Part shown: piece after piece, positions 8,053-45,100 of the stretch
Numbering within the stretch: position 1 is the first letter of the stretch
Layout: each line of letters begins with the position of its first letter
Assembly: GCA_964600255.1 (NCBI GenBank)
Contig: CAZRIX010000001.1
Location: 43,948 to 107,947 of the forward strand
DNA from: an uncultured Candidatus Saccharibacteria bacterium
GTDB taxonomy: Bacteria; Patescibacteriota; Minisyncoccia; Phycocordibacterales; PALSA-1337
Length of the DNA stretch: 64,000 nt
Direction of reading: 5' to 3'
Notes under the pieces: generated by a model
Told to the model about the DNA's origin: nothing
The model's database searches: none
The model's input: only the letters and a program-made list of their open reading frames with translations
Position numbers and translations under genes: made by a program

Positions 8053-8634
8053 CTACCTTGTAGCTTCGATGTTGGGAGTTATTTCACCCGTAGCACTAAC
8101 TACGATACGTCCGTTGGTATCCTTTGATATCAAATACTTTGTATCATAATCAGTAACTGATGTGAATTTGGCTCCAGTAGCTGTTGGATCAAAAGGTAGG
8201 CTCGATATGTATGTTGGAATCAAACATGAAGCGATATCAACACCCTGAGTCGTATCACTACTTATTACCTTTGGTGTACTTGGTATAACAACGGGACAGT
8301 TGAACACTCCGCGATTCTCGGCCATGTTCTGTCCAACGGCATTTAGGATTGCTGTCACATTACTAACCCTTTGTGAATCGTGTGCTAGCTTGAATTGACG
8401 TGATGGATTGATCGCTACTAGAACTATTGCAGATAGTACGGCAATGATACCTATTACCACCAATATTTCGATCAGAGTAAAACCGGAATTAGTTCTGAGA
8501 CTGCCTGACTTACGCGTCACAACAGGATCTCCAGCCCCAACCTTACTCCTTGCATTACTCACACCACCCCTCATTATTTTAATTTTATTATTCATTGTTT
8601 CTTGTATTATTAATAATATGTAAATCTTACACAA
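8053..8634 (-). CDS. Type IV pilin (prepilin with G/FTLIE processing site)
   Basis: GFTLIEILVVIGIIAVL class III signal with Glu at +5. The leader is long, so the true start may be an internal Met. Confidence 0.7.
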   Translation of the reverse strand: MCKIYILLIIQETMNNKIKIMRGGVSNARSKVGAGDPVVTRKSGSLRTNSGFTLIEILVVIGIIAVLSAIVLVAINPSRQFKLAHDSQRVSNVTAILNAVGQNMAENRGVFNCPVVIPSTPKVISSDTTQGVDIASCLIPTYISSLPFDPTATGAKFTSVTDYDTKYLISKDTNGRIVVSATGEITPNIEATR

Positions 8635-8687
8635 AACTAATTAAGGATCTTTAAATTAAAGATTAAAAAGTTATGAATTTTTTATAA

Positions 8688-9056
8688 CTAATTTACTATT
8701 TCCAAATAGCTATCAAAAAGCCTGACTTGTGAAGTCATCTTTACGTCTATATTCATATAATTCCCAGTCACATCAATAGTTACCACGCCATTTTTCTCAT
8801 CAACGCGATCAATACTACAATCAAAGTCAACCATCTGAGTTGATGTCGATACTCTATAGTAGAAATCATATGACAAGTTCAATATCGCTTGATCTATACA
8901 CGAAAGAGCATTGTAGTGATTCATGAGCCTATATTCCTTTGTCCTAGTTTGATCAAAGAAATGAGCTATTGCTATTGTTTTACTAAAAGACAAAGCCAGA
9001 AGTAGACCAGTTACAGTAATTACCAGTGTTATAGATATGAATCCTTTATTATTCAT
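8688..9056 (-). CDS. Small membrane-anchored protein. Possible degenerate pseudopilin.
   Basis: N-terminal KGFISITLVITVTGLLLALSF hydrophobic segment with no Glu at +5. Sits between prepilin genes in the same strand run. Confidence 0.35.
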   Translation of the reverse strand: MNNKGFISITLVITVTGLLLALSFSKTIAIAHFFDQTRTKEYRLMNHYNALSCIDQAILNLSYDFYYRVSTSTQMVDFDCSIDRVDEKNGVVTIDVTGNYMNIDVKMTSQVRLFDSYLEIVN

Positions 9057-9216
9057 GATAGTTTTTTATTAATTTTTCATAGTCAGCATCTGTAAAGTCT
9101 GAATGATTGGTTCCTGACCTAACATAGCTGAGAACAAGTGAAAACACTCCAGTCATGAGCACTGACACCAGAGAGATATAGACTATGAGTTCAAGTATAG
9201 AAAAGCCTTTTTTCAT
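9053..9216 (-). CDS. Small prepilin-like protein (~54 aa), absent from the ORF track
   Basis: Reverse-complement reading gives MKKGFSILELIVYISLVSVLMTGVFSLVLSYVRSG... with a G/FSILE class III signal. Its stop overlaps the start of the next gene. Confidence 0.5.
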
Positions 9217-9217
9217 A

Positions 9218-10534
9218 TTATTTTAAATCGATCATTAAGAAACCTTTCATATCTCCAGTAGCAAAATATAATCTTGAATTGTCACACGTCATTTTTACAA
9301 CCGATCCAACTAGCGGATAGCTTTGTTTCAGATTTAATAGACTAGGATCATACACTTGTAGTTCCTTACCAGTTGCATGAGTTAATAAAAGCAAATCACT
9401 TGGAGTCTGTATAATCCCATACACACCACCAGGAATATCTTTTGAGATAGTCGAGGTACCGAATACAAATACTTCGTGGTTACTTGTAACGTTAAAGCCA
9501 CCGACCGTTCTACCCAACATCAATCTATCCTCAAACATATTGATTGTTTTACCCTCCTGAGTCTGCCATCCGCTCGATGTAAATGAGTCTATTAGTCTAG
9601 GCTGTGATTTATCTTTTACATCAAGTACTCTCATCTGCATTTCGTCTGATGTAGCCAAATAGACCTTATCACCGGTGGCGTATATATCATTTACCAAGGT
9701 ACCAGTCTCATAGCTTCCAACCACAAATGGAAACTTTTTATCCGAGACATTTATAATATTTAACTCTGGACCATTCCATTTTGTCGTACCGAGATATATA
9801 TGGTTTCTATAATAGAAAATTGACGTAGCGATAGGTGGCGTGGTGGTTGGTGTTGGTAAAGGTAATCTCAACTGAGATATAAGTTTTGGATTGGTACGGT
9901 CGCTAATATCAACTATCTGCAACTGATTGGCTGTACTCGCCTGCGCAACAAACATATACGGTCCAGCAACTTCAAGTGACTTTATACCTGGACCAGTATG
10001 CAGTGACGACAGTATTCTTGGTATGTCCGCATCTGAATTATCAACTATATACAAATCCGGCAGGGATACATTACTTGAATCAGTTGATAGATATACGACA
10101 TCGTTTCTTGCCTCTATGTCTGAACTATAGTTACCCACTCCCGTATTTATACCAGTTGTGTATTCCCTTAACTGGCTGGGGTCGAAACTGAGTCTGGGAT
10201 AGCAAGCACCTCTTCCCCATGCATCAGTGTAGTTTGAGTGTGCAAGAGTAAAGATCTCATTAGAATATCTCATAGTACTATTACCATACATTGTTGAACT
10301 GGCGTATATACCGCGATCAAAGTCACGGACTAATAACTCCATTCGGTCTAACTCATTTAATGACCAAATCTTTAACCTTTGCATAGATAGATCAAGACTA
10401 AATATTGATATGGTAAAAATGGTAAAGATTGAAAATGCCAACATTACTTCAACAATCATAAACCCGCGATTTCTTATCTTCATTTTACTTCCACTTACTT
10501 TCACATTATTTTGATAGATGGTTTGAGATCTCAT
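9218..10534 (-). CDS. Large prepilin-like protein (minor pilin or tip adhesin candidate). N-terminal class III signal, repeat-rich extracellular domain.
   Basis: MKIRNRGFMIVEVMLAFSIF prepilin signal. The start is more likely the internal Met at ~10483. ~420-aa beta-rich body. Confidence 0.55.
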   Translation of the reverse strand: MRSQTIYQNNVKVSGSKMKIRNRGFMIVEVMLAFSIFTIFTISIFSLDLSMQRLKIWSLNELDRMELLVRDFDRGIYASSTMYGNSTMRYSNEIFTLAHSNYTDAWGRGACYPRLSFDPSQLREYTTGINTGVGNYSSDIEARNDVVYLSTDSSNVSLPDLYIVDNSDADIPRILSSLHTGPGIKSLEVAGPYMFVAQASTANQLQIVDISDRTNPKLISQLRLPLPTPTTTPPIATSIFYYRNHIYLGTTKWNGPELNIINVSDKKFPFVVGSYETGTLVNDIYATGDKVYLATSDEMQMRVLDVKDKSQPRLIDSFTSSGWQTQEGKTINMFEDRLMLGRTVGGFNVTSNHEVFVFGTSTISKDIPGGVYGIIQTPSDLLLLTHATGKELQVYDPSLLNLKQSYPLVGSVVKMTCDNSRLYFATGDMKGFLMIDLK

Positions 10535-11582
10535 ATACAGGCAAAATTATTGATAGAGCAATAGATCCAACCACTAAGCCCATAAAAACCATTAGCACCG
10601 GCTCTATAAGTGAAGTAAAACTCTTTAATACATTCTCTATTTCTTGTTCAAATATCCTAGCCGTATGTCCGAAAAGCGCACCGAGGTTGCCTGTCTTTTC
10701 CCCAATACTAACCATATCAATCATCAAGCTTGGTATATACAATTTAGATCTATCCAAAGATATTGATAGTGCAATACCATTCAAAGATTCTGCATAAACT
10801 CTATTGAATGTATTCTTCAATACTGAGTTTGAATTTGAATCCCGAGCAAATACAAGAAGCTCCTGAATGCCTCTGCCGGAGTTAAGTAGCATTTCTCCCA
10901 TACTGCATATCGGTATCATCATATTTATTTTTGTATATTTATGAACTATGGGTATAGACAGGATAAGTAGATCGAACTTGTATTTAACCGTGGTGGATTT
11001 TAGGATAAGAATTCGAAGTAGTACACCTAGGACCAAGCCTGAAACAAGTGCATATATTCCAAACTCAGTCATGAGATAGTAGATCTCCTGCACTATTCTA
11101 GTCATGAGTGGTAGCTCAATATCTAGACTAGATAATAGAGGAACTATTTTAGGAAAAATATAAAGGATTAGAAAAAGCGACATAAAGATAGTGGCGATAA
11201 ATATAAATATTGGATACACCAATGCACTAACTATCTTCTTTTTTAACTCACTCTTTTTATAAAGATAGTTGTATGCCTGCAACAGTGAATCTGAAAGAGT
11301 TCCATTCTGCTCTCCGTTTTCTATGAGTATTAGCAGTAAACTATTGAATCTTAAGTTCTGGTTCCTTATAGATTTACTCAGACTTAATCCATGTTGAATA
11401 CTATTCACTATCTCTCCTAGCATATTTTTCTTACCTATAGAATTTTCTATCTTGCGGATCATCTCTAACCCATCGACAAGTGATATTCCGGAATTTAGTA
11501 ATATAGACAATCTCTGTGCAAAGTGTATTTGATCTGCCAGACTAAAAATCCTACTATTCATGTAATGTTCGATTGACTTCAT
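10506..11582 (-). CDS. pilC: Type IV pilus/T2SS platform protein (GspF/PilC family)
   Basis: Two T2SSF-like repeats with polytopic TM topology. Lies directly downstream of the PilB ATPase. Confidence 0.75.
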   Translation of the reverse strand: MKSIEHYMNSRIFSLADQIHFAQRLSILLNSGISLVDGLEMIRKIENSIGKKNMLGEIVNSIQHGLSLSKSIRNQNLRFNSLLLILIENGEQNGTLSDSLLQAYNYLYKKSELKKKIVSALVYPIFIFIATIFMSLFLILYIFPKIVPLLSSLDIELPLMTRIVQEIYYLMTEFGIYALVSGLVLGVLLRILILKSTTVKYKFDLLILSIPIVHKYTKINMMIPICSMGEMLLNSGRGIQELLVFARDSNSNSVLKNTFNRVYAESLNGIALSISLDRSKLYIPSLMIDMVSIGEKTGNLGALFGHTARIFEQEIENVLKSFTSLIEPVLMVFMGLVVGSIALSIILPVYEISNHLSK

Positions 11583-12690
11583 TTTCAGTTGTTATTCCAT
11601 TTTCTACTTTTATCATTGCGTCCTCATACATTGTCTTCATACCTTTGGAACGGGCATAAAGGGTAATATCTGCCATAGATGTTCGAGTCATTATGTATTT
11701 TCTCATTTCATCATCAACCATGAGTGTTTCTGCAACGACGGTTCGACCTTTATATCCAGACCCATCACATACCAAACATCCGCAACCAGCCCCGAAACAC
11801 ACCCTGCAAGTCTTTCTCACTAGTCTCTGGGCAATAACTAGTGAAAGAGTCGATGCTACTAGATACGGATCTATACCCATATCTACAAGCCTAGGAATTG
11901 CTCCTAGGGCCGAGTTTGTATGCAAAGTGGATAGAAGCAAATGACCAGTCAAAGAAACGTTTGTGGCAATGACAGCAGTCTCTTTGTCACGTATCTCACC
12001 TACCATTATGATATCTGGATCCTGTCTAACGATGGATCTCAATCCATTTGCAAAAGTAATACCGTGTTTTGAGTTTATTTGTATCTGCCTTACATCTGGG
12101 ATTGCGTATTCTATTGGATCCTCTAGTGTGATTATTGAGTTCTTGTTGGTAGCAAGTGATGCAATGAGTGTATACAGGGTCGAAGTCTTTCCGGACCCGG
12201 TTGGACCTGTTACCAATATCATTCCCTGATGCAATGACAGACTTGTAAGTATTCTATCTACATCTAGCTCAGAAAATCCGAGACTGCCTAGTGTAGGAAT
12301 TTCTTTGTCATTCTTTAATATTCTAAGTACAGCATTCTCTCCGTAGTGTGTCGGTATGATCGAAACTCTCACGTCACAGTTAAATGATAATTGAGCAAAC
12401 TTAAATCTTCCATCTTGTGGTACAAAATGTATATCTGTTCGTAATCCAGACACTACTTTTATCCTAGCTATTACTTCTTCATGGGTATCGTGCAAAAGTG
12501 TATCTATCACCGTCAAAACCCCATCTATCCTAAACTTAACAACTGTACCGTTTGGTGATGGGTCTATGTGTATGTCGGATGCATTTCTATACAAAGCAAA
12601 GGTAACTATAGAGTCTACCAGCTCTACAACAGAAACGATGTCATGCAACATTTTTTCGTTATTAATAATTTTATATATCTTTTCTTGCAT
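11554..12690 (-). CDS. pilB: Type IV pilus assembly ATPase (GspE/PilB family), short form lacking the N-terminal domain
   Basis: Walker A GPTGSGKTST. Asp and His boxes. C-terminal tetracysteine CRVCFGAGCGCLVC. Confidence 0.8.
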   Translation of the reverse strand: MQEKIYKIINNEKMLHDIVSVVELVDSIVTFALYRNASDIHIDPSPNGTVVKFRIDGVLTVIDTLLHDTHEEVIARIKVVSGLRTDIHFVPQDGRFKFAQLSFNCDVRVSIIPTHYGENAVLRILKNDKEIPTLGSLGFSELDVDRILTSLSLHQGMILVTGPTGSGKTSTLYTLIASLATNKNSIITLEDPIEYAIPDVRQIQINSKHGITFANGLRSIVRQDPDIIMVGEIRDKETAVIATNVSLTGHLLLSTLHTNSALGAIPRLVDMGIDPYLVASTLSLVIAQRLVRKTCRVCFGAGCGCLVCDGSGYKGRTVVAETLMVDDEMRKYIMTRTSMADITLYARSKGMKTMYEDAMIKVENGITTENEVNRTLHE

Positions 12691-16082: not shown

Positions 16083-16970
16083 ATGGACATTAGTTTTAAC
16101 AAGGAAACCAACGTTTTGAGATGGACCCCAGTTCTATTAACAGATCGATATGTAGTGAAGATGGAAGGTGGAACTGCTCCAGATGACTGGACTAATGAGT
16201 ACTCAGTCCCTGAAACAGTAACCGGCATTAAACTAGTTGAATCGGCGTACTGGGGCAACATCAAGGAAACTGGTGCGAAGATAACCATCACTGCGCTCGA
16301 TGATAGTAGGAGCACTCTGGATACTGTCGACATCAACATTACCATCCCGAAGCAGAAGTGGCACCAGGGAGCGGCCGTGAGGCTGTTCATGCTACTGGCG
16401 GTCCTACTCGGCGCTTGGGCGTCATACTCACAGTACAAATTGGGTAAGGCCAATGACGTTATGGCTGAGCGGGATGAAGCAAAAACACTTCTTGCTGCTC
16501 AGGTGACACTGACAGCAGACTGGAAGAAGGCACACGACAAAGCTACCAACCAGCCAGTTGTAACATTGTACGAAACCAATGTGGTAACGGTGCCTGTGTA
16601 CGAGAAGATCAAAGTCTACGACATCCCGCAAGGGATGCCGAAGGCTGGACCAGCGACGAATGATACGTTGGTCCATTACTTCTCGCCTACCAACCAGCAC
16701 ACGGTGACGAAGTTCATCACCGATGGAGATGGGACTATGTTCCTCACTCCAAACGACTGGCAGATCAACTGCCTGGTCTACGGTAACGTGGCCGATTTCG
16801 ATCGGCTCGTGAACATCGGGGGACTTACCAACCCCCACTGGATCCATTACGGACCAGGAACAAAACTTCCAGAGGCGACCAAGGTGGTCGCATATTGGAT
16901 TAGAAACCGAGTGCAGAACTCCCACCTCAAGGTGGAGTTCGTGCTCACACCCGTCGCCTCTACTCCATAG
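16083..16970 (+). CDS. Hypothetical membrane protein (single central TM) in the high-GC island
   Basis: 295-aa ORF with RBS AGGAGA. GC ~50%. Central hydrophobic helix AAVRLFMLLAVLLGAWASY. No recognisable motif. Confidence 0.5.
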   Translation: MDISFNKETNVLRWTPVLLTDRYVVKMEGGTAPDDWTNEYSVPETVTGIKLVESAYWGNIKETGAKITITALDDSRSTLDTVDINITIPKQKWHQGAAVRLFMLLAVLLGAWASYSQYKLGKANDVMAERDEAKTLLAAQVTLTADWKKAHDKATNQPVVTLYETNVVTVPVYEKIKVYDIPQGMPKAGPATNDTLVHYFSPTNQHTVTKFITDGDGTMFLTPNDWQINCLVYGNVADFDRLVNIGGLTNPHWIHYGPGTKLPEATKVVAYWIRNRVQNSHLKVEFVLTPVASTP

Positions 16971-16990
16971 CAAAGCGCGACCGGCAAAGG

Positions 16991-17025
16991 GAGCCTGGGA
17001 TTTTATTCCAGGCTCTTTTCTTTTG
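16991..17025 (+). terminator. Intrinsic terminator
   Basis: GAGCCTGG-N9-CCAGGCTC perfect 8-bp stem followed by TTTTCTTTT. Confidence 0.65.
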
Positions 17026-17069
17026 TGTGTTTACTAAATAATTTAAAGATTTTTAAAGCATAATTACCA

Positions 17070-17182
17070 TTGACTTTTCATTTAAAATGTGCTAATATAT
17101 TAGGAGAGTTAGAAGGCCAAGTACTCTGACACGCTGTAGCGTGGAGGGAGGAAAGGAAGAACTTTGACAACAAGGATAATTC
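17070..17182 (+). promoter_or_regulatory. Consensus-like sigma70 promoter plus conserved structured leader, copy B
   Basis: TTGACT at 17070-17075, 17-nt spacer, TAATAT at 17093-17098. The hairpin ACGC/GCGT sits where copy A has CCGTGC/GCACGG, which is a compensatory change. Confidence 0.6.
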
Positions 17183-18112
17183 GTGAAAAAACTATCATAC
17201 GAGTCGCAATTTTGGAGATTAGTCGTCTCCATCATGTCACTGCCCATAACGATGTACGTCATCTACAAGGTCGTATACACGGTTGTTGTATTCATGCGAT
17301 TCGATCCATCGGTGGCCGAGAAGTTAGCGAACTGGGTAGGCCTACCGGCCTCCTGGTATATCTACTTCAAGTTCCTACTCGAACGGTTCTGGATTGATGT
17401 AGCACTTGAAGACGTGGTCCTAGAAGATTCCTTCAGTTTCCGGAACAGGAAGGTCGGTGATCAAGCAGACCCATTGGCTTTGCCGAGTGGTCTGAGGTCA
17501 GTTGGTGGACCAGGGTTCAGAGCGAAGGGTTTCTTTGAGACCGTCAAGACGAGATTACCTGTAGTATCTAAAGAGAAGAATGGTGGCCTCGAAGTCGACG
17601 ACAAGCAAACGAACACCTTCAACGTCAGTTACTCCATGACATTTACTAGGGTCAGGGGTAAATTCTCTGTGATTGGTTCAACCTACAAAGAGGAAGAGGC
17701 AGTTAAAACCCTCGAAGCCATCGTTGAGGCGCGAATTGAGGAATTATTCGCAAACGAGCAGGATGGTAGGAATATCCGGGCTTCACTTGATAAACGTAAC
17801 GAGGATCTCTCTAAGGTCCTCGGCGGCGATCGAGATATCAGCACCGAAGAGATTCGTTGTGGGTTCTTCATAACAAAACTTCGAATCAAGACGGTTGATG
17901 AGGCTGCAGCAACAAAACAGCGTAACCAGACCCAAGCGCTGGCAACAGCTGTGAATTCTGCAGCAGATGCTCTATCAAAGGGTATCGGGGCTGGAGCAGA
18001 TCCAAACCTTATTATGGCCCTTGCTGCAAGTGCAGCTGGGGTTAAGGGTGACGGAGTTAAAGTGAGTATAGTCAAGGGTCTCGAGAAAGGCGGCACATAC
18101 AACGTAAGTTAA
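17183..18112 (+). CDS. Membrane protein with weak SPFH/band-7-like features (GTG start)
   Basis: N-terminal TM helices. Central region and Ala/Gln-rich C-terminal helix loosely resemble stomatin/HflKC organisation. Unknown function. Confidence 0.4.
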   Translation: MKKLSYESQFWRLVVSIMSLPITMYVIYKVVYTVVVFMRFDPSVAEKLANWVGLPASWYIYFKFLLERFWIDVALEDVVLEDSFSFRNRKVGDQADPLALPSGLRSVGGPGFRAKGFFETVKTRLPVVSKEKNGGLEVDDKQTNTFNVSYSMTFTRVRGKFSVIGSTYKEEEAVKTLEAIVEARIEELFANEQDGRNIRASLDKRNEDLSKVLGGDRDISTEEIRCGFFITKLRIKTVDEAAATKQRNQTQALATAVNSAADALSKGIGAGADPNLIMALAASAAGVKGDGVKVSIVKGLEKGGTYNVS

Positions 18113-18113
18113 C

Positions 18114-18554
18114 ATGAACACCACACTTCTCAAAAAACTGGCGTGGTATGGGCCAATCGCGGCGATACTAATCGCTACGATGTTCTACATCCGATCCTAC
18201 AACGGGTCAGAAAAGAAGGTACAGCACGTCCCTGTCACTGGCGGTGGTAAGGCTTCGGCAACCACCACAATCACGATCATCAAGGGGGCAACTCCTAGGA
18301 TGATCGATTACCCACATTTCTCCCGGTTCAGATCGGGAATTGTGGAAGATGACGTTGCGTACGTCATACACATCAATCTCGTCGGTCGGCCTGACCATGA
18401 GATTGAAAAAATATTCGTACCTGCCAGAAACGACAGACCGAGCAATTGGTCTGATCCGCTCGCAGGCAAGAATATTGCGAGGATCGGGTTTACGCTCGAT
18501 CCTTCCTCGGCCAAGGATATTGGCCACATCGAGTACGTAGTCGAGAGGCAGTAG
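18114..18554 (+). CDS. Hypothetical membrane-anchored protein, probably co-transcribed with 17183..18112
   Basis: ORF begins 2 nt after the upstream stop. N-terminal TM. High GC. Confidence 0.45.
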   Translation: MNTTLLKKLAWYGPIAAILIATMFYIRSYNGSEKKVQHVPVTGGGKASATTTITIIKGATPRMIDYPHFSRFRSGIVEDDVAYVIHINLVGRPDHEIEKIFVPARNDRPSNWSDPLAGKNIARIGFTLDPSSAKDIGHIEYVVERQ

Positions 18555-18580
18555 ATAATACCACCACTCGAAAACGGCAA

Positions 18581-18608
18581 AGGGGGACCCTATGGGACCC
18601 CCTTTTAC
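18581..18608. terminator. Bidirectional intrinsic terminator between the island and the pilin array
   Basis: GGGGGACCC-TAT-GGGACCCCC hairpin with an A-run upstream and a T-run downstream. Confidence 0.6.
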
Positions 18609-18636: not shown

Positions 18637-18966
18637 CTACTGGAATGGATCAGTAACACCCACTGGTGCAAGTGTACTGACTATAACCCTAATTATCCCA
18701 TATGCCGATACCATGATGAACATTCCCGCCGCACTCCAGAATATACTTCTCTTGCCGTCTTCTCTTGCATCAGAATCCTCCTGACTCGCAATCATTTTGA
18801 ATATGCCGTACACAAATGTTACAAAAGACAGTAGGAACATTACACCAAGAATCGGTGTGATTATGTTCAAAGCAATACTATCTAGAAAACCACGTATAGT
18901 GGGGTTCTTCGATAGAACTTGTGACGCAGACTGTGCGTGAGCAATGTTTATCAAGCTAATCATCAA
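18637..18966 (-). CDS. VirB2/TrbC-like two-TM pilin-family protein, paralog 1
   Basis: Signal peptide ending AHAQS. Hydrophobic helix, short Asp/Glu/Arg-rich loop (QEDSDAREDGKRS), second hydrophobic helix. Confidence 0.5.
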   Translation of the reverse strand: MMISLINIAHAQSASQVLSKNPTIRGFLDSIALNIITPILGVMFLLSFVTFVYGIFKMIASQEDSDAREDGKRSIFWSAAGMFIMVSAYGIIRVIVSTLAPVGVTDPFQ

Positions 18967-18973
18967 ATTGGAT

Positions 18974-19345
18974 TTATGGAATCTGTGGTGGTGGTGGAAG
19001 CTGAATGTTGTTTACCTTGTCTGTTGGAAGATTGTTTTGTCCAAACTGGAATGAGTTTGTTAGAAGATATACAAGTCCCCAGATTGATAGGATTGCAAAT
19101 AGACCTATAACTCCATAAAGTATAGCCTGTCCCCCCTTCTTACGAGCTTCCTCATCATCACTACCTGCGATTAGGTATCTGACAACACTGATTATGATCC
19201 ATAGAACTGCAAATGAGATAGCTAGTCTAACGAGCAAGTTACCAATATTTGTTGCCTTCATTGCAACAGAGTTGATGTCATTTAGCTGTTGAGCAAATAC
19301 AAGCGTAGGTGAAAATGCGATAATGGCTGCGATTATTTTTTTCAT
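18974..19345 (-). CDS. VirB2/TrbC-like two-TM pilin-family protein, paralog 2
   Basis: Signal peptide ending VFAQQ. TM. AGSDDEEARKKGGQAILYGVIGLFAIL loop and TM. ~75% identical to paralog 3. Confidence 0.55.
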   Translation of the reverse strand: MKKIIAAIIAFSPTLVFAQQLNDINSVAMKATNIGNLLVRLAISFAVLWIIISVVRYLIAGSDDEEARKKGGQAILYGVIGLFAILSIWGLVYLLTNSFQFGQNNLPTDKVNNIQLPPPPQIP

Positions 19346-19423
19346 GATAATATATTATTTAATAACTACTAAATTATAACAGTTTAAAGGTTTAGCAACA
19401 AATGGGCTGTGGATACGAGAATG

Positions 19424-19795
19424 CTATATATTAGAATTAATCGTAGGGTCCTGTATTCTCAAATTGTTAAAATTTGGTCTTTGATCTTCAGAGAATCTAA
19501 ATGTATTTACTAGAAGATATACCATTCCCCAAATAGACAAAATCGCAAATAGACCAATAACACCATAAAGTATAGCATCACCACCCTTCTTGCGAGCATC
19601 CTCATCGTCACTACCTGCGATTAGGTATCTGACAACATTTACGATTATAAATACTACAGCCAGTGAAATTGCTAACTGGATTACAAGATTACCAATGTTT
19701 ACACTCTTCTGCGCCACATCATTAATATCTCGTAGCTGTTGTGCTGATGCAAATGCTGGAAATAGGATTGTTGTTAGAGTAAGTATTTTTTTCAT
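19424..19795 (-). CDS. VirB2/TrbC-like two-TM pilin-family protein, paralog 3
   Basis: Same architecture. Loop AGSDDEDARKKGGDAILYGVIGLFAIL. Confidence 0.55.
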   Translation of the reverse strand: MKKILTLTTILFPAFASAQQLRDINDVAQKSVNIGNLVIQLAISLAVVFIIVNVVRYLIAGSDDEDARKKGGDAILYGVIGLFAILSIWGMVYLLVNTFRFSEDQRPNFNNLRIQDPTINSNI

Positions 19796-19802
19796 ATTTT
19801 AT

Positions 19803-20411
19803 TTAATTACCTGATGGGTCCGAACCTGTAGCACCGGATTCTGATGGTTGTGTACCACCAGTACTAGGTGACCCACTCGGAGAGTTTGATGTACTACCAG
19901 ATCCGCTACCATTTGAATTCCCTGTTGCTGGCGATCCGCTTGGTCCATTGAAAACATTACCTGAACCGCTTGGAGGGTTTGTTGTTCCACTAGTGCCACT
20001 TGAAGGGTTTGTTGTAGCTCCACTCACACTTGGAACTGTATTACCACCAGATGTACTGCCACCACCGCCATTGAAATTCACAAATGATGGTACGGTTCCT
20101 GGTTGTCTACTATCTAACTGTAGTGTATTAGTAAATATTGCGACTATTCCCCAGAACGAAAGTATTACAAAGAATCCAATTACACTGAATAATACGTACT
20201 TACCTGCTTCAGTTCTGTCCTTTTCAGTAAAGAAGTAGATGAATACATTCCAAACAAACACCACAACGGCAAGACCTATGATCAGTGATAAGGCTATGTT
20301 TAGATATTCAGCTACTAGACGCGCTAGATCCTTCAGTGACTTGCCCTGCGCAAAAGTAAAACCGGGTAAAAGTAGTGTTAATAGTAATAATTTGCTTTGT
20401 AATTTATTCAT
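19803..20411 (-). CDS. VirB2/TrbC-like two-TM pilin-family protein with Gly/Ser/Thr/Pro-rich C-terminal tail, paralog 4
   Basis: Signal peptide. TM. TEKDRTEAGKYVLFSVIGFFVIL loop and TM. Then a ~100-aa low-complexity GSTPN tail. Confidence 0.5.
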   Translation of the reverse strand: MNKLQSKLLLLTLLLPGFTFAQGKSLKDLARLVAEYLNIALSLIIGLAVVVFVWNVFIYFFTEKDRTEAGKYVLFSVIGFFVILSFWGIVAIFTNTLQLDSRQPGTVPSFVNFNGGGGSTSGGNTVPSVSGATTNPSSGTSGTTNPPSGSGNVFNGPSGSPATGNSNGSGSGSTSNSPSGSPSTGGTQPSESGATGSDPSGN

Positions 20412-20420
20412 AAATATTAA

Positions 20421-20846
20421 TTATTTTTTAAATTGCTGTTCAGTAACCAAACCCGCACTGATGAGTGTGGTCTTAACAACTTCTACCACAACCTTTGAAC
20501 TGATGAGTAAGGCAGTACCTATAACGGCATACATAAACCATTCTTTGGCTTCAGATATAGCACTATCATTACCCTGTGCCATTACAAATTTGAATCCTAT
20601 GTATATAAACATAAGCACGGCCACGATAGATCCAAGATATATCGCCAGATCAACAAGAGTCAGCAGAAGATCACTTATACTATTTACTTTGATTGGATTG
20701 TCGAGTTTGACCACTACTGGTGTCTTGTTGGCAGTTGTATCTAAATTACCTTTATTTGCGGTAGTATCAATAGCAGCATTTGTAATAGGAAAACTATACA
20801 CAAATCCGGAAATTAGTAGAATCGCAATAACTAGTATTTTTTTCAT
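20421..20846 (-). CDS. VirB2/TrbC-like two-TM pilin-family protein, paralog 5
   Basis: Signal peptide. TM. AQGNDSAISEAKEWFMYAVIGTALL loop and TM. Confidence 0.5.
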   Translation of the reverse strand: MKKILVIAILLISGFVYSFPITNAAIDTTANKGNLDTTANKTPVVVKLDNPIKVNSISDLLLTLVDLAIYLGSIVAVLMFIYIGFKFVMAQGNDSAISEAKEWFMYAVIGTALLISSKVVVEVVKTTLISAGLVTEQQFKK

Positions 20847-21298
20847 TTTGATGGTGTATTAATAAATGTACCGATCACAGTTTTATTCTTCTCTGTCACG
20901 AACCAGTTGACTACCGTGATAACTGAAATCCATGCTACAAGCATTATTATAAACCCCTTAGCCACTGATGGGAAGATCTTCTTTGCTGTACTTATATTAC
21001 CAGAAGTACCTGTCATATACAGAAGTCCTGCATAGGCCATAAGCACAGTGACTATTGGCACGGTTATGAAGAACAGCCAATTTATCGTTGATTTCACCAT
21101 ATTCATTAGTGCATTGAAATCACAAACTTGTTGTCTGTCTTTCTCTAATGGATTACCATTTATATCTTTAGCCACAACACCATCACACTTCACCAACCCG
21201 CTATAATCTAGCTTTACCGGCTGTGCATTCTGCGCAAAAGAAAATACTGGGACAATAAGAGATAAAAATATTGTAAGTGTTATTAGATATTTTTTCAT
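20843..21298 (-). CDS. VirB2/TrbC-like two-TM pilin-family protein, paralog 6
   Basis: Signal peptide ending SFAQN. TM. TGTSGNISTAKKIFPSVAKGFIIMLVAW loop and TM. Confidence 0.5.
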   Translation of the reverse strand: MKKYLITLTIFLSLIVPVFSFAQNAQPVKLDYSGLVKCDGVVAKDINGNPLEKDRQQVCDFNALMNMVKSTINWLFFITVPIVTVLMAYAGLLYMTGTSGNISTAKKIFPSVAKGFIIMLVAWISVITVVNWFVTEKNKTVIGTFINTPSK

Positions 21299-22587
21299 TT
21301 GTTTTGTAGTGATAGGTTAAGTTCATCACTTGCATTCTTGATCGCAGTATATGTATCCAAACGACCACTTGTGACAGATTGGACCATATTTGTAAATATT
21401 TGGTTTGATCTTACAGGGTCAGCGTCCAGCCAACCTCGTGAAATAAGCGCTGCATCCAAGAAGCTTGCCATATATGGATTGGTAGATCCTTGAGCTATTA
21501 CATCACGCCTAACTGATGGTAAAAATGTTATCTTGCTCAAGATAGACATAGCGTCGCCTGCTGTAAGTATTCGCATAACATTATATGTATTTGCTTGATT
21601 TTGTGAACTTTTTACCAATGACAATCCATACATATTTCCGTATGTAGTTCGTATTGTACCAGTTCTAGCTTGAGGTATCGGAGCAACATCGTAGTCTATG
21701 TTTGGATTCTTTTGCCTTAATTCATTTACCTCTGAAGCAAAACCAAAATATGTAGCCAGGGTTCCAGCTAGGAAACTTGCTTTTGATGATGGTAATGACC
21801 TATTCCAAGAATAGTGTGAATCTCTAGGATCTGAAAACTGAGTAAAGAAAGTCAGTGCAGGTGTAGAAGTTCTAGAACCTGAATATGAACTGTCACTTAG
21901 CCCACTCTGTATACCAGCTGAACCATATAGTGTTACAGGATTACCAGCCTGAAGGAATAGAGTGCTTAGGATTTCTCTAGCATGATCAATATTTGCGAAC
22001 TCTCCCATAGCTATAGAACTTCTTCTAATATTTGAATTGATATCCTTGATGTCTATTTTCTTTCCTATATTTGCAAACTCATCCCAATACACTGGGTACT
22101 TTGCTATACCTGCATTTGTAAACATTGTTCTATTCCAATACATGACCATAGGATCCACTAGGAAAGGAATAGCTGTGAAGCCTGTTTGTGTAATATACAA
22201 ATCTGATTGGCCAATAAATGTATCTTGATATGCACGCTGTGACAGTGCAGTGTTTGGAATCTCGATAATCTTATCTACTAGACCCAATATGTACTGCTGC
22301 GGTACTAGTATTGCGTCGGGGCCTCTACCATTTGCTAGCTCCTCTATGAACTGTCTTCTAAAGTCTGCTGCGGGTATTTGGACATAGTTGATACTCAATG
22401 CTGATGCACGTGTCTGGTTCAACTGATTGACCATCTCGGTAATAGTAGAAGATGGTAGAGTTCCCCATATCGTTACTGTTGGTAACTGAGTTGATGTATT
22501 ACTACTTTTGAATGTGGCGAAAGCAATAACTCCGATCACGATACAAAAAACAAAAACTCCAGTTAAAATTATTTGAAATTTACTCAT
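21295..22587 (-). CDS. Membrane-anchored protein with periplasmic solute-binding-protein-like fold
   Basis: N-terminal TM anchor, then a ~400-aa alpha/beta domain of SBP-like composition. No ABC permease nearby. Start and stop overlap the flanking genes. Confidence 0.35.
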   Translation of the reverse strand: MSKFQIILTGVFVFCIVIGVIAFATFKSSNTSTQLPTVTIWGTLPSSTITEMVNQLNQTRASALSINYVQIPAADFRRQFIEELANGRGPDAILVPQQYILGLVDKIIEIPNTALSQRAYQDTFIGQSDLYITQTGFTAIPFLVDPMVMYWNRTMFTNAGIAKYPVYWDEFANIGKKIDIKDINSNIRRSSIAMGEFANIDHAREILSTLFLQAGNPVTLYGSAGIQSGLSDSSYSGSRTSTPALTFFTQFSDPRDSHYSWNRSLPSSKASFLAGTLATYFGFASEVNELRQKNPNIDYDVAPIPQARTGTIRTTYGNMYGLSLVKSSQNQANTYNVMRILTAGDAMSILSKITFLPSVRRDVIAQGSTNPYMASFLDAALISRGWLDADPVRSNQIFTNMVQSVTSGRLDTYTAIKNASDELNLSLQNK

Positions 22588-23108
22588 TGTTTTTTAAATA
22601 TAATACCATAATGATGATCTCCGGCATCAAAAGTCTTCTCTATTGTAAGACCTACCTTTTGGAAAATACCTTCAGCAAGCATCTGTGGAACTAGTGTCTT
22701 TGGACTCAATGGACTTCCAGATGACCAATCGATAACTAGAAGCTTACCTCCGGACTTCAGAAGTCTCTTTACCTCAAGTGCTAGGTTGTCTCTATCTGCA
22801 ACTTCTATTTGGAAGAGTGTATTTGAAAGAATTACACGATCAGCGATCGCTTCACGAAGTTTTGTTCCACCTAGTTTTTCTATATTACCCCAAACAACCT
22901 CGATATTGCGTAGACCGGCAAGTGCCCCACTGTTTTTAATCTTGTTCAAAAGATCTTGTTGAACATCTACTGCATATACTCGTCCAGAAGCACCGGCTTT
23001 CTTGGCTGCTTCTATTGTATAGAAACCTGATCCAGCACCTAGGTCGACAACTTTCATACCATGGTCGATACCTAACATTGCTATATTTTTTTGAGGGTCA
23101 GAAAACAT
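22584..23108 (-). CDS. Class I SAM-dependent methyltransferase
   Basis: VVDLGAGSGFYT glycine-rich SAM motif. Acidic residue after strand 2 (AVDVQ). Confidence 0.65.
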   Translation of the reverse strand: MFSDPQKNIAMLGIDHGMKVVDLGAGSGFYTIEAAKKAGASGRVYAVDVQQDLLNKIKNSGALAGLRNIEVVWGNIEKLGGTKLREAIADRVILSNTLFQIEVADRDNLALEVKRLLKSGGKLLVIDWSSGSPLSPKTLVPQMLAEGIFQKVGLTIEKTFDAGDHHYGIIFKKQ

Positions 23109-23293
23109 GCAATTATTATAACATAGGAAATAAAAAACAAGAGCGATTTAAGATATTGTATGCAAAAGAGAATGAAATATACGCCTCAGGACACGCACTA
23201 TCGCCTACTGGCGATGTACTAGTTCTCGACGTCTCCACGTCTCCGAAATGTCCTTCGTCATACATTTCATTCTCTCTTCTTTTTTACCAACAA

Positions 23294-42102: not shown

Positions 42103-45100
42103 CTATTTTCCAAATAGTAATTTCAATATCTTAAGGAAATATGTCTTTGTACCTACAACAATAGCTGATGTCACCTTTGAGATCGTGCCTTTATTACCTT
42201 TTACTGCAGTTTTGTTAGCACCAGCATCATTCTTTGTACTTGAGACAACCCCTATTAATCCTGTAGCCTTCTTAGATACTACACTCGTCCCTGACTCACT
42301 AGCTTTTACTTCCTTAGAATTTTTTGAACTTTCTAGTGGCTTTAATGTTGGCGCCTTTGTGACTGGGTCCGGCACAAGACTTGCAAATGGTGAGGTTAAC
42401 TGCCTTACAAAATTAATTGCTTTATGTGGATTTACAGCGGTCACAATAGCAGCTACTGGAGTTACAATCTCAGGTTCTGGATTGTATATAGTTATAACTA
42501 CACTTGTTGTTGCGAAGTTATTTGATGAATCGCGTGCTACAGCATATACAGTATAGCTACCATCAGCATAACTAGTACTATTGAGAGAAGTAAAATATGG
42601 ACTAGCCACATCCTCCACTCCCAAATATACTCCATCAATCATAAATCGAACTCCAGCTAGCGATACATTATCTACTGCAGATGCAACTATACTTACCGCA
42701 TTTCCAGATACCACTTCAGCGTTAGCTGGAGATACGATGGAAATAACAGGGGCAGTTATGTCTGGCACAATATTTGAAACCGTAATACTTACCGATGTTG
42801 TCGCATAGTTATTTGATGAATCCCGGGCAACCGCAGTGACAACATAATTACCATTTGCAACTGAAGTACTGTCAAAAGATATTGTGTATGGACTACTTGT
42901 ATCTTCTGATCCAAGATTTACATTATCGAGTTTAAACTGTACCCCTGCGACAGCTATGTTATCTGTTGCTGTAGCGGCAATGCTGTAAGAGCTTCCTGAG
43001 ACCGTAGCGAGGTCTGTAGGTGATGTAATAGATACAACTGGATCTGTAGTATCGGGTATTACAACTGCCAAAGCAGAAGCCATATTAGAATTACTTGTTC
43101 CACTAGCATCAACTAGTCTTATTCTGTAATAATAATCAATTCCATCGGAAATATATGGATCAGTAAATGTTGTTGTACCCTCTGGCACCAAATCTGAAAC
43201 TATGTTTTGAGTAAATAGGAAATTCGTAGCTCTATCTACATACAACATATGTGATGTTGTAGCATTGTTTGTCCAAGTCAGATCAACTTGATTTGCTCCT
43301 CTAGTAGCATCCAAACTTGTTGCAGCTGGAGTCAAACTTACTGATGGGAATACATCATCTAGATTCCAACTACTGTTCCATGAAATAGACATCGTATTGT
43401 TTGTTGGGAATGTCAAAGGTAACCAAACATGTCTACTGTTATACAATGATCCAGCGAGATTATTACTATAATCAAATCTATCTCCGATATAAATATATGC
43501 ATCACCACGTCCAGGTATATGCTCTATATCCGTTGTCTGGGAACGGTAAGCAATCATTCTATCTTCCTCAACACTAACCTGGAATGGATTTACAAGTGGT
43601 GACCAATTGCCCATAACACTCGTTGAGGTTGAATATTTATTCTCGTTTGGAGCCCATCCTGTTAGTCCAGATGTAAGTAGGAAGTACACACCATTTCGAA
43701 GTATCATCTGAGGACCCTCACGACCAATCAATACATTTGGTCTAACATATGTTCCAGAAGTGGTTAGATAATCATCTGATAGTTTTGAAATAACGAAATG
43801 CGTATTCGGACCGTCTGAGTATAGTAGATATCCTGATCCATCAGTATCCTTAAATAGGTTCATGTCGTTTAGATAGAATCCATCTGGGTTGTAAGATGAT
43901 GAAGCAATAGTGAATGCCCCGTATGGTGTGTCGTTGTAAGCAACCACTGCTGTAGATTTTCCGGATGCGATAACTCGGTGACCCCATAGTACGTATTTTC
44001 CAGTCGTGGCGTTATATAGCACGTGTGGTCTTTCTATCATATAACTTCTACCGAGATAAATAACAGGACCTTCATCTTTCCAATTTATCAAATCACTTGA
44101 TGAGTAACATGATATACCTACTGCTTCGATTTCTGGATCGTTTGCATTAAAAATCTGTCCGTACCAATAGTACTTACCGTTAAAGAATTGTATTTCTCCA
44201 TCATGTGACTCAATCAAATGGTTATCAGTATCTAACCAATCCTGTCCTGGCTTAAAATCGATATCGAACCAATATCTAGATTGAGGCGAGACTTCAGAGA
44301 CGAACATGCCATCACTTATAGCTATAGATTGAACTGTGGATGATGCACTCAGTACAAACGGTGCAGTGTATAGTACCGTTGTACCTTGTGGGACTCCGTC
44401 TACTACACTAGGAATACTACCGTCAGTTGTATAGTAAATAGATGCGTTGGTTGTGATACTAGAAAGTCTTACTCTAATTGGTTGTGCATACTTTCCTCCA
44501 TTTGGCGAAGCTGTAGGGTGAACAGGGGTATATGGAGTGGTTGTGCCAGGATTTCCAATCAATCTAAATTCGGCTAGGTTACCGTAGTTTCCATCTGGCA
44601 TAACTAGTCTGTAAAATCTGTATGCACTACCGCCGGCGTCGATAGCAATCTCACTCATCTGTCGCTGAGCATAATACGGAGGATATGGTTGTATTGTGTG
44701 TATAGTTGTCCAAGGTCCAGTACTAGAACTGACATTTGCTCCTTGCAGATATGCACCGTAAACTTGAACTGTGTATCCTGGTCTTGGTGCAATCTTCATT
44801 CGCGTTACAACAGCTGGTGCCTTTAGATCAAGGCCAACTAGAGAACCGTTTGCACTTTGAGAATCCCACCATGTAGAAGTATTGCCGTCATATACCTTTG
44901 AGTAAACATTTCCACTGTTATTGTAACTTCCTGGAGTTCCAAACTGGTATGCAGGTGAGATACTAAACTGTATTTCTCCAGTTGAAGTCGCTACCGGACA
45001 TGTTGCGGTGGTCAATGTCCTGTTTGGTCCATATGAAGTACCAGATAGGTTTATTGTATATGCTCTGAAGTTATAGACGGTAGCACATGATAGACCACTT

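What the first reader, a model, noticed from the sequence alone, without database searches (positions are those of the whole stretch)
18637..21298. Tandem array of six paralogous VirB2/TrbC-like two-TM pilin genes
Six consecutive minus-strand genes of 109-202 aa encode the same plan. Each has a cleavable signal peptide, a hydrophobic helix, a short charged loop (AGSDDEEARKKGG-type in copies 2 and 3, related loops in the others) and a second helix with a conserved (I/V)GxxxILxxWG core. This matches conjugative T4SS pilins and the CPR-associated type-IV-secretion pilin families. It does not match type IV (PilA) pilins. No VirB4, VirB6 or VirD4 gene lies in the window. Copies 2 and 3 are ~75% identical at DNA level, so the duplication is recent. 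The array may give a variable or heteropolymeric surface filament. In an episymbiont this could be relevant to host contact or DNA uptake.
Basis: partly seen in the sequence, partly recalled or inferred. Interest (0 to 1): 0.75.

Follow-up and report, generated by a model that had tools for sequence, protein, structure and literature searches.

The report
Pilin gene array with sugar-binding partner
Six neighbouring genes in a tiny symbiotic-type bacterium do encode conjugation-style (VirB2-like) pilin proteins, a kind of array already published, but here they form a strictly conserved operon with a sugar-binding protein and a methyltransferase, which gives a testable clue to what these filaments do.

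Summary
The six minus-strand genes (18637-21298) are real. Five pass Pfam PF18895 (T4SS_pilin). The sixth (c6) is a divergent member, shown through its orthologues. Tandem arrays of 2-11 VirB2-like pilins in Patescibacteria are already published, including an essential six-gene array in Southlakia epibionticum, so the core finding is a new member of a known kind.

Comparison with 78 related species adds four things:
- The array is the tail of an operon: SAM-methyltransferase, then a maltose-binding-protein-like solute-binding protein (SBP), then the pilins. This was present in 66 of 66 loci that could be judged.
- The pilins are five old, position-fixed classes (P1-P5). Copies 2 and 3 are a duplicated P4.
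- The SBP has fused to P1 in at least two independent lineages.
- A conserved promoter-like spacer precedes P4.

All six genes are under purifying selection (dN/dS 0.04-0.12). The "recent duplication" and "variable filament" readings are not supported. A heteropolymer with P4 as the major subunit is plausible. Copy 1 has no classical signal peptide. No VirB4, VirB6 or VirD4 gene lies in the window, and no VirB4 lies within 10 kb of any related array. Dependence on a type IV secretion machine is therefore inferred, not shown.

The parts
23109..23138 (-). Promoter-like element in front of the methyltransferase gene. It is an extended -10 (TGtTATAAT, hexamer at 23115-23120) that ends 6 nt before the ATG, which suggests a leaderless transcript.
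   Evidence: Read directly from the sequence. Function is inferred. This site was not tested for conservation in relatives.
22584..23108 (-). First gene of the operon: a 174-aa class I SAM-dependent methyltransferase. Its stop overlaps the SBP start by 4 nt.
   Evidence: Pfam Methyltransf_31/25/11. Present with the SBP in 66 of 66 related loci that have enough upstream sequence. Overlaps the SBP gene in 32 of 68 loci. dN/dS 0.024 against L004.
21295..22587 (-). 430-aa solute-binding-protein-like gene. It has an N-terminal hydrophobic helix (anchor or signal peptide) followed by a maltose-binding-protein-type fold. Its stop overlaps the start of c6.
   Evidence: Pfam SBP_bac_1/8. AlphaFold2 pLDDT 90.5. 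Foldseek top matches are mannobiose- and maltodextrin-binding proteins, E 1e-22 to 1e-24. Fused to P1 in L021, L022, L024 and L041, in two independent events. The fusion protein P0302 stands for 8 member sequences.
20843..21298 (-). c6, pilin class P1. Signal peptide, then an extracellular N-terminal segment with an invariant Cys pair (C38, C59), then the two-helix hairpin.
   Evidence: PF18895 only 14.2 bits, but 43 of 45 orthologues hit PF18895. hhalign against P4 gives 94.7%. Always the first gene after the SBP. Invariant cysteines.
20421..20846 (-). c5, pilin class P2.
   Evidence: PF18895 43 bits. All 41 orthologues hit PF18895 and 34 of 41 hit TrbC/VirB2 PF04956. Positional orthology.
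19803..20411 (-). c4, pilin class P3. Hairpin plus a C-terminal tail of about 100 aa rich in G, S, T, P and N.
   Evidence: PF18895 29.7 bits. In orthologues the tail is 20-141 aa and rich in G/S/N/T/P. Positional orthology.
19424..19795 (-). c3, pilin class P4, upstream duplicate (P4a). It follows P3 after 7 nt and lies upstream of the promoter-like spacer.
   Evidence: PF18895 44.5 bits. Maps to position 4 of five-gene arrays. 88% identical to its L004 orthologue, dN/dS 0.09. The extra gene in the six-gene arrays is P4-type, normally inserted at this place; L053 is the one exception.
19346..19423 (-). 78-nt spacer carrying a conserved internal promoter-like element: CCACA at 19408-19412, TTGTTG as the -35, and TGtTATAAT with the -10 at 19373-19378, 27 nt before the c2 ATG.
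   Evidence: The junction before P4 has a median length of 93 nt, against 4-11 nt at the other junctions. A -10-like hexamer is present in 48 of 48 spacers (30 are exact TATAAT), a median of 39 nt from the ATG. CCACA is present in 40 of 48, 19-32 nt upstream of the -10, against a background of 7%. Transcription was not measured.
18974..19345 (-). c2, pilin class P4, downstream copy (P4b). This is the candidate major subunit.
   Evidence: PF18895 39.9 bits. 95% identical to its L004 orthologue, dN/dS 0.045. P4 is the best conserved class, with the most uniform length (116-132 aa).
18637..18966 (-). c1, pilin class P5. It is the shortest copy and has no classical signal peptide. The likely start is the ATG at 18963, giving 108 aa.
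   Evidence: PF18895 33.2 bits. hhalign against P4 gives 99%, E 6e-18. Leader of 0-12 aa in 45 orthologues. The orthologue is called as 108 aa in L002-L005.
18579..18605 (.). G+C-rich hairpin (GGGGGTCCC-ATA-GGGTCCCCC) flanked by A and T runs. It looks like a bidirectional terminator shared with the convergent gene that ends at 18554.
   Evidence: Sequence. RNA fold of both strands gives -22.8 and -18.2 kcal/mol for the region. The consensus scan missed it because of one T-T mismatch.

Best explanation
The six genes encode VirB2/TrbC-superfamily pilin-like proteins of the Patescibacteria-enriched family PF18895. They are the distal part of one operon: a SAM-methyltransferase, then a maltose-binding-protein-like solute-binding protein (SBP), then five ancient pilin classes P1-P5. 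In this lineage P4 is duplicated, giving c3 and c2.

Shown:
- family membership of the six genes;
- a tightly packed operon layout with overlapping or near-touching genes;
- the same class at the same position across 47 or more species;
- purifying selection on all six genes;
- two independent SBP-P1 gene fusions;
- a conserved promoter-like spacer in front of P4.

Inferred:
- P1-P4 are inserted through Sec and lose a signal peptide. P5 inserts without one.
- All sit in the membrane as helical hairpins with both ends outside and the charged loop inside. The fusion architecture fixes this topology, because the extracellular SBP domain runs straight into the mature N-terminus of P1.
- The chromosomal Patescibacteria-type type IV secretion machine (VirB4, VirB3/PrgI, VirB6), encoded elsewhere in the genome, extracts them and polymerises them into a mixed surface filament or stalk.
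- P4 is the major subunit. It is the best conserved class, has a uniform length, has its own promoter and is prone to duplication. P1-P3 and P5 are minor or specialised subunits that differ mainly in their externally exposed N- and C-terminal extensions.
- P1 tethers the glycan-binding SBP, so the structure would recognise or capture a sugar-containing ligand on a host cell.

The role of the methyltransferase is unknown. Pilin modification is only a guess.
For: - Pfam PF18895 is above cut-off for c1-c5. c6 is rescued through its orthologues. P5 aligns to P4 at 99%. P2 orthologues hit TrbC/VirB2 in 34 of 41 cases.
- The AlphaFold2 model of c3 is a helical hairpin after a signal helix.
- The module methyltransferase-SBP-5/6/7 pilins is present in 66 of 66 loci that could be judged, out of 78 species.
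- Each window pilin finds its best match at the same position in other arrays.
- dN/dS is 0.04-0.12.
- SBP-P1 fusions occur in four species, from two independent events.
- The SBP has an oligosaccharide-binding fold.
- The internal promoter-like spacer is conserved.
- Literature: VirB2-like arrays of 2-11 genes occur in 383 Patescibacteria assemblies, and VirB4 is present in 2,417 of 3,035 genomes (PMC12102498). The six PF18895 pilins SEML1_0014-0019 are essential and lie beside VirB4, VirB6 and PrgI in S. epibionticum (PMC10633639; PMC12857230).
Against: - No VirB4, VirB6 or VirD4 lies in the window.
- No VirB4 lies within 10 kb of any of the 78 related arrays. Only one locus has a VirD4-like ATPase next to the module.
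- I could not check whether this genome has a VirB4 at all.
- The window proteins themselves do not hit the TrbC/VirB2 model.
- Structure and sequence searches against solved pilins were uninformative.
- No pilus of this type has been seen in this lineage.
- The ideas that P4 is the major subunit and that P1 carries the SBP are inferences from conservation, promoter position and fusions. They do not rest on expression or structural data.
- Synteny is generally high in this lineage (gyrA is also conserved upstream), so adjacency alone is weak evidence.
Confidence: 0.55

Rival explanations
1. The hairpin proteins never leave the membrane. Together with the SBP they form a receptor, uptake or signalling complex that does not depend on a type IV secretion machine. 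It would be a new kind of SBP-dependent device in which small two-helix proteins replace the usual permease.
For: The module is always separate from virB4. The genes are tightly packed with the SBP, and SBP-P1 fusions exist. No ABC permease lies nearby. 12 of 41 P2 orthologues give weak hits to the small membrane subunit DctQ of TRAP transporters.
Against: Family membership points to polymerising pilins. From general knowledge, no known SBP-dependent transporter uses two-helix hairpins. The long low-complexity external tails of P3 and P4 suit a surface-exposed structure better than a channel. The DctQ hits are weak and are the kind expected between hydrophobic helices.
Confidence: 0.2
2. The array is a set of interchangeable variants used for antigenic or host-range variation, as proposed for the virB2 paralogues of Bartonella and Anaplasma. 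One or a few copies would be used at a time.
For: Pairwise identity between the copies is low, 18-36%. The literature suggests this reading for Patescibacteria arrays (PMC12102498). P4 duplicates recur, and the two P4 copies within one locus are 53-99% identical, which hints at gene conversion.
Against: Each class keeps its position and its class-specific features in 47 or more species: the Cys pair in P1, the tail in P3 and the missing leader in P5. All copies are under purifying selection and no copy is decaying. The genes are co-transcribed by layout. No invertible or recombination elements were found, and no recombinase lies near the array in the window.
Confidence: 0.07
3. They are unrelated small membrane proteins, such as holins or bacteriocin immunity proteins, that merely share a two-helix plan.
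Against: Five copies exceed the curated PF18895 cut-off. Profile-profile links join all classes. TrbC hits reach E 5e-11. No lysis, toxin or bacteriocin genes are adjacent.
Confidence: 0.03

Closest known systems
Essential six-gene VirB2-like pilin array SEML1_0014-0019 of Southlakia epibionticum ML1 (Saccharibacteria; Wang et al. 2023, PMC10633639)
   Same: Six tandem PF18895 genes of about 125-190 aa with divergent sequences, in a Patescibacteria chromosome. Some members also hit TrbC/VirB2.
   Different: That array lies inside the type IV secretion cluster, beside VirB6, PrgI and VirB4. It has no SBP or methyltransferase in front of it. The window array is at least 18 kb from any such gene on one side and 42 kb on the other. 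It is coupled to a methyltransferase and an SBP, and belongs to a Parcubacteria/Paceibacteria-type lineage.
VirB2-like pilin arrays of Patescibacteria surveyed by Quinonero-Coronel et al. 2025 (PMC12102498)
   Same: Arrays of 2-11 genes found with PF18895 and PF04956. Within-array identity is low, with a mean of 25%. In 813 of 1,948 assemblies the pilin genes are not near virB4.
   Different: The survey does not mention the SBP or methyltransferase linkage. It is not known to report position-fixed classes, SBP-pilin fusions or an internal promoter. It reports a maximum identity of 54%, whereas c2 and c3 are 62% identical and some relatives reach 97-99%. It reports arrays as most abundant in Microgenomatia and Saccharimonadia.
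Canonical conjugative pilins VirB2 (T-pilus), TrbC (RP4) and TraA (F), Pfam PF04956
   Same: Small proteins with a leader and two hydrophobic helices joined by a short loop, with both termini on the outer side of the membrane. P2 orthologues hit PF04956.
   Different: Canonical pilins are single-copy genes inside a virB or tra operon of diderm bacteria. Here there are five classes, no adjacent machine, a monoderm-type host, no hit of the window proteins themselves to PF04956, and one class without a leader.
virB2 paralogue arrays of Bartonella and Anaplasma
   Same: Tandem amplification of VirB2-type genes.
   Different: Those arrays are interpreted as variation for immune evasion. Here the classes are ancient, ordered and under purifying selection.
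Major and minor pilin gene sets of type IV pili (works-like comparison only)
   Same: One abundant subunit plus several specialised low-abundance subunits encoded together, sometimes with an adhesin carried by a minor pilin.
   Different: No homology. The six proteins lack the N-methylation motif, and a separate true type IV pilus locus lies at 8053-12690.
Mbov_0395 family pilin-like conjugal transfer protein of Mycoplasma integrative conjugative elements (NCBIfam NF045849)
   Same: c1-c4 align over nearly the whole 80-position model.
   Different: Scores of 22-31 bits are below the cut-off of 40, so this is a lead and not a membership.

Membership tests
Pfam PF18895 T4SS_pilin | Score at or above the curated gathering cut-off (26.6 bits) | tested here: met
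   c1 33.2, c2 39.9, c3 44.5, c4 29.7 and c5 43.0 bits. c6 alone fails at 14.2 bits, but 43 of 45 of its positional orthologues match at E of 0.01 or better, and its profile aligns to P4 at 94.7% probability.
Pfam PF18895 T4SS_pilin | Leader followed by a two-helix hydrophobic hairpin with a short polar loop | tested here: met
   Hydropathy and alignment. AlphaFold2 model of c3. Exception: c1/P5 has no classical leader.
TrbC/VirB2 pilin (Pfam PF04956) | Match to the family model | tested here: inconclusive
   No window copy matches at E of 1 or better. 34 of 41 orthologues of c5 and 3 of 45 orthologues of c6 match, best E 5e-11.
TrbC/VirB2 pilin (Pfam PF04956) | Encoded with the type IV secretion machine (VirB4, VirB3, VirB6) | tested here: not met
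   None in the 64 kb window. No VirB4 within 10 kb of 78 related arrays.
TrbC/VirB2 pilin (Pfam PF04956) | Fold similar to solved pilins and polymerisation into a pilus | tested here: inconclusive
Patescibacteria VirB2-like pilin array (as defined in PMC12102498) | Two or more pilin genes in tandem, or separated by one gene, in a Patescibacteria genome | tested here: met
   Six in tandem. Relatives carry the labels Taylorbacteria, Paceibacterota and Parcubacteria.
Type IV (PilA-type) pilins | N-terminal prepilin cleavage and methylation motif | tested here: not met
   None of the six hits N_methyl or TIGR02532, whereas the ORF at 8053-8634 does.
Holins or bacteriocin immunity proteins | Match to a holin or immunity family, with lysis or toxin genes nearby | tested here: not met
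   No such hit for the six proteins. The neighbours are a methyltransferase, an SBP and gyrA.
ABC-type solute-binding protein (for the linked 430-aa gene) | SBP fold, and a partner permease and ATPase | tested here: inconclusive
   The fold test is met: Pfam SBP_bac_1/8, and Foldseek E 1e-24 to oligosaccharide-binding SBPs. No ABC permease or ATPase gene was found in the window.

The most novel reading that the evidence does not exclude
The methyltransferase-SBP-P1..P5 operon could be a self-contained derivative of the conjugative pilus, in which a dedicated pilin (P1) carries a maltose-binding-protein-like glycan receptor. That would make it a sugar-recognising filament used by Parcubacteria-type episymbionts to find, hold or feed on a host. 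It would be the first link between a solute-binding protein and a VirB2-type pilus.
Probability: 0.3. Interest if true: 0.75.

Novelty: new variant of a known kind. Interest (0 to 1): 0.45.

Why it matters
The type IV secretion system and its pilin array are essential in the one Patescibacteria species that can be manipulated genetically, but their role is unknown (PMC10633639, PMC11665869). This locus shows that, in a different and very large branch, the pilin set is an ordered five-class kit. It is hard-wired to a glycan-binding protein, and in two lineages physically fused to it.

That turns an open question into concrete experiments:
- which sugar the SBP binds;
- whether P1 displays the SBP;
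- whether P4 is the bulk subunit;
- whether the distant VirB4 machine is needed.

It also argues against the antigenic-variation reading, at least for this lineage.

Tried and rejected
- I looked for VirB4 in three ways. All large ORFs in the window belong to other families. All ORFs of 450 aa or more in the 78 related loci were listed, the recurrent gene clusters were identified and ten of the large ORFs were scanned; these yielded only a VirD4-like ATPase, in L054, and no other listed ORF of VirB4 size carries a Walker A motif. I used that ATPase to look for T4SS genes on the window's own contig, but none of the 120 listed homologues had the window contig's length. In a relative it lies about 190 kb from the array, with no T4SS neighbours.
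- Trying to walk beyond the window with an exact-match look-up returned only a 24 kb contig.
- The three convergent neighbour genes have no Pfam or NCBIfam family. Only a profile search suggested an SPFH fold for the middle one.
- The consensus promoter and terminator scan found no more sites than expected by chance. It missed both the internal promoter-like element and the terminator hairpin. Those were found by reading the sequence and by comparison with relatives.
- The "recent duplication" reading was rejected from orthologue comparison.
Full report
**Observation.** The region 18637-21298 holds six consecutive minus-strand ORFs of 109, 123, 123, 202, 141 and 151 aa. I number them c1-c6 from low to high coordinates. 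Transcription therefore runs from c6 to c1. Junctions are 4-nt overlaps or 7-9 nt gaps, except for a 78-nt gap between c3 and c2. All six proteins show two long hydrophobic helices separated by a short charged loop. An AlphaFold2 model of c3, built on 58 sequences, has pLDDT 76 and gives a signal helix at 2-16, helices at 24-59 and 65-98, and a disordered tail.

Pairwise protein identity between copies is 18-36%. The exception is c2 against c3, at 62% in protein and 67-69% in DNA, with 80-90% only in nt 151-270. Apart from the start Met, one Gly is the only residue invariant across all six. c1 has no classical signal peptide.

**Family.** Pfam PF18895 (T4SS_pilin, cut-off 26.6 bits) is exceeded by c1-c5, with scores of 29.7-44.5 bits. 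c6 scores 14.2. NCBIfam gives sub-threshold hits for c1-c4 to a pilin-like conjugal transfer protein of Mycoplasma elements. None of the six has a type IV prepilin motif, whereas a genuine one lies at 8053-8634.

c6 is a member through its orthologues. 43 of 45 positional orthologues hit PF18895. The c6-type profile aligns with the c3-type profile at 94.7% probability, E 6e-8. The c1-type profile aligns at 99%. Orthologues of c5 link the set to canonical TrbC/VirB2 (PF04956) in 34 of 41 cases, best E 5e-11.

Structure searches could not add to this, because a helical hairpin matches thousands of unrelated chains. A profile search of PDB sequences found nothing.

**Surroundings.** The window is an ordinary chromosomal stretch of a Patescibacteria-type genome. 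It holds gyrA, a class I tRNA synthetase, ftsA/ftsZ, ribonucleotide reductase, lepA, murJ, RNase P RNA, four tRNAs, a type IV pilus locus at 8053-12690, and a 2026-aa glycoside-hydrolase surface protein. No VirB4 or VirD4 is present. The only unassigned polytopic membrane protein corresponds to a PrsW-protease gene in a contig that matches this part of the window.

Directly upstream, with overlapping stop and start codons, lie a 430-aa solute-binding protein (SBP) at 21295-22587 and a 174-aa SAM-methyltransferase at 22584-23108. An extended -10 element ends 6 nt before the methyltransferase ATG. A strong hairpin at 18579-18605 closes the operon. No Shine-Dalgarno motif precedes any of these genes.

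**Relatives.** A close relative, whose GyrA is 98% identical, has the same six genes in the same order. A scan of one genome per species with the c3-type alignment returned 78 loci. They are labelled Taylorbacteria, Paceibacterota or Parcubacteria, plus generic labels.

The pattern methyltransferase, SBP, then pilins was present in 66 of 66 loci with enough upstream sequence. Arrays had five pilins in 53 loci, six in 16 and seven in 1. GyrA identity to the window across these loci is 75-92%, so the lineage is moderately deep. Synteny is generally high, since gyrA is also conserved upstream. Adjacency alone is therefore weak evidence.

**Ordered classes.** Each window pilin finds its best match in every other array at the same position. 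c2 and c3 both map to position 4 of the five-gene arrays. The array is thus five ancient classes: P1 = c6, P2 = c5, P3 = c4, P4 = c3 and c2, and P5 = c1.

Each class has its own features:
- P1 has an invariant Cys pair in an extracellular N-terminal segment.
- P3 has a C-terminal tail of 20-141 aa rich in G, S, N, T and P.
- P4 is the most uniform in length (116-132 aa) and the best conserved.
- P5 has a leader of only 0-12 residues, without a basic n-region.

Against the close relative, dN/dS is 0.04-0.12 for all six genes. dS is 0.7-1.7, near saturation, so these ratios are approximate. In the six-gene arrays the extra gene is P4-type, and it is normally inserted between P3 and the spacer. 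Identity between the two P4 copies within one locus ranges from 53% to 99%. This indicates recurrent duplication or gene conversion at this one position.

**Link to the sugar-binding protein.** In four species the SBP and P1 are one protein of 560-597 aa. The SBP domain runs through a linker into the mature N-terminal segment of P1 and replaces its signal peptide. Three of the four fusions form one clade. The fourth has unfused nearest neighbours, so there were at least two fusion events. One fusion protein stands for 8 member sequences in the large protein collection.

The fusion also fixes the topology: the mature N-terminus of P1 is on the outside. The window SBP models with pLDDT 90.5. It matches mannobiose-, mannotriose- and maltodextrin-binding proteins at E 1e-22 to 1e-24.

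**Internal promoter.** The junction before P4 has a median length of 93 nt (range 65-215), against 4-11 nt at the other junctions. All 48 spacers have a -10-like hexamer, 30 of them exact TATAAT and 26 with a TG extension. The hexamer lies a median of 39 nt before the ATG. 40 of 48 spacers have CCACA 19-32 nt upstream of the -10, against 7% in random 93-mers from the same loci. In the window this spacer lies at 19346-19423, in front of c2. By layout, c2 and c1 should get extra transcription. This was not measured.

**Interpretation.** What is shown is family membership, operon layout, ordered classes, purifying selection, the fusions and the conserved spacer. What is inferred is that a type IV secretion machine encoded elsewhere polymerises these proteins into a mixed filament or stalk. 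In that model P4 is the major subunit and P1 is the carrier of a glycan-binding protein.

The inference rests on homology and on published work. VirB4 is present in 2,417 of 3,035 Patescibacteria genomes, and pilin arrays of 2-11 genes occur in 383 assemblies (PMC12102498). An essential six-pilin array lies beside VirB4, VirB6 and PrgI in S. epibionticum (PMC10633639 and PMC12857230).

Against it, no VirB4 lies within 10 kb of any of the 78 arrays. Only one locus has a VirD4-like ATPase next to the module. I could not inspect the rest of this genome. A membrane-embedded complex with the SBP that does not use the secretion machine is the main rival. Antigenic variation and a holin-type function are poorly supported.

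**Novelty.** Three searches of the held literature that combined Patescibacteria or Parcubacteria with VirB2, pilin or type IV secretion terms, and PF18895 itself, turned up no report linking an SBP to these arrays. A text search of the main survey found no mention of an SBP or of the methyltransferase link. I did not search specifically for the five ordered classes or the internal promoter. I therefore rate the whole module as a new variant of a known kind, of moderate interest.

Noticed in passing
window 16083-18554 (+ strand): Three convergent genes of 295, 309 and 146 aa, each a membrane protein, lie in a patch with higher G+C (0.48 against about 0.38). They are syntenic with the array in most relatives and match no Pfam or NCBIfam family. 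A profile of 32 orthologues of the 309-aa protein hits prohibitin-1 (E 3e-4) and stomatin, so it is probably a very divergent SPFH scaffold protein. The 146-aa partner might be NfeD-like, but that is a guess.
   Followed up: partly
window 16083-16970; position about 12.4-15.4 kb in L007, L047, L059, L064, L085 and others: The outermost gene of that trio evolves fast: 57% identity and dN/dS 0.39 against a relative whose GyrA is 98% identical. The gene at this position varies from 295 to 987 aa between species (only some were confirmed as homologues). This fits an exposed surface protein under diversifying pressure.
   Followed up: partly
window 8053-12690 (- strand): A separate type IV pilus locus: a prepilin with an N-methylation motif, an LVIVD-repeat protein, a PilC-like protein (T2SSF) and a PilB/PilT-like ATPase (T2SSE). 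The cell therefore encodes two unrelated kinds of pilin.
   Followed up: partly
window 42103-48183 (- strand): A 2026-aa protein with glycoside hydrolase family 43, bacterial Ig (Big_7), F5/8 type C and chitobiase C-terminal domains. It is a giant glycan-active surface protein.
   Followed up: no
window 18963-23138: None of the eight operon genes has a Shine-Dalgarno motif. The methyltransferase gene has TGtTATAAT ending 6 nt before its ATG, which suggests a leaderless transcript.
   Followed up: partly
L054 126-2894; protein family P0090-P0209; L089 10001-12760: A highly conserved 920-aa VirD4/coupling-protein-like ATPase (DUF8128 plus T4SS-DNA_transf, 60-78% identity across the lineage) abuts the module in only one species. 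In another it lies about 190 kb from the array, next to ribonucleotide reductase, a TPR protein, murJ and lepA. The same genes sit at the right end of this window.
   Followed up: partly
L018, L020, L023, L025, L028, L030, L031, L040, L049, just upstream of the methyltransferase gene on the opposite strand: An extra pilin-like ORF hit by the lineage HMM lies divergent from the operon. I did not check whether these are real genes or shadow ORFs. The window has no such ORF.
   Followed up: no
c1-c4 (window 18637-20411): Sub-threshold but near full-length matches to NCBIfam NF045849, a pilin-like conjugal transfer protein of Mycoplasma integrative conjugative elements. This hints that monoderm MPF-FATA-type systems may have VirB2-like pilins after all.
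   Followed up: no
window 21295-22587, residues 1-32 of the SBP: The N-terminal helix of the SBP ends in an invariant F-A followed by T-x-K, and the model has a low-confidence linker at 26-32. It could be a cleaved signal peptide rather than an anchor. In that case P1 might be what keeps the SBP on the cell.
   Followed up: no
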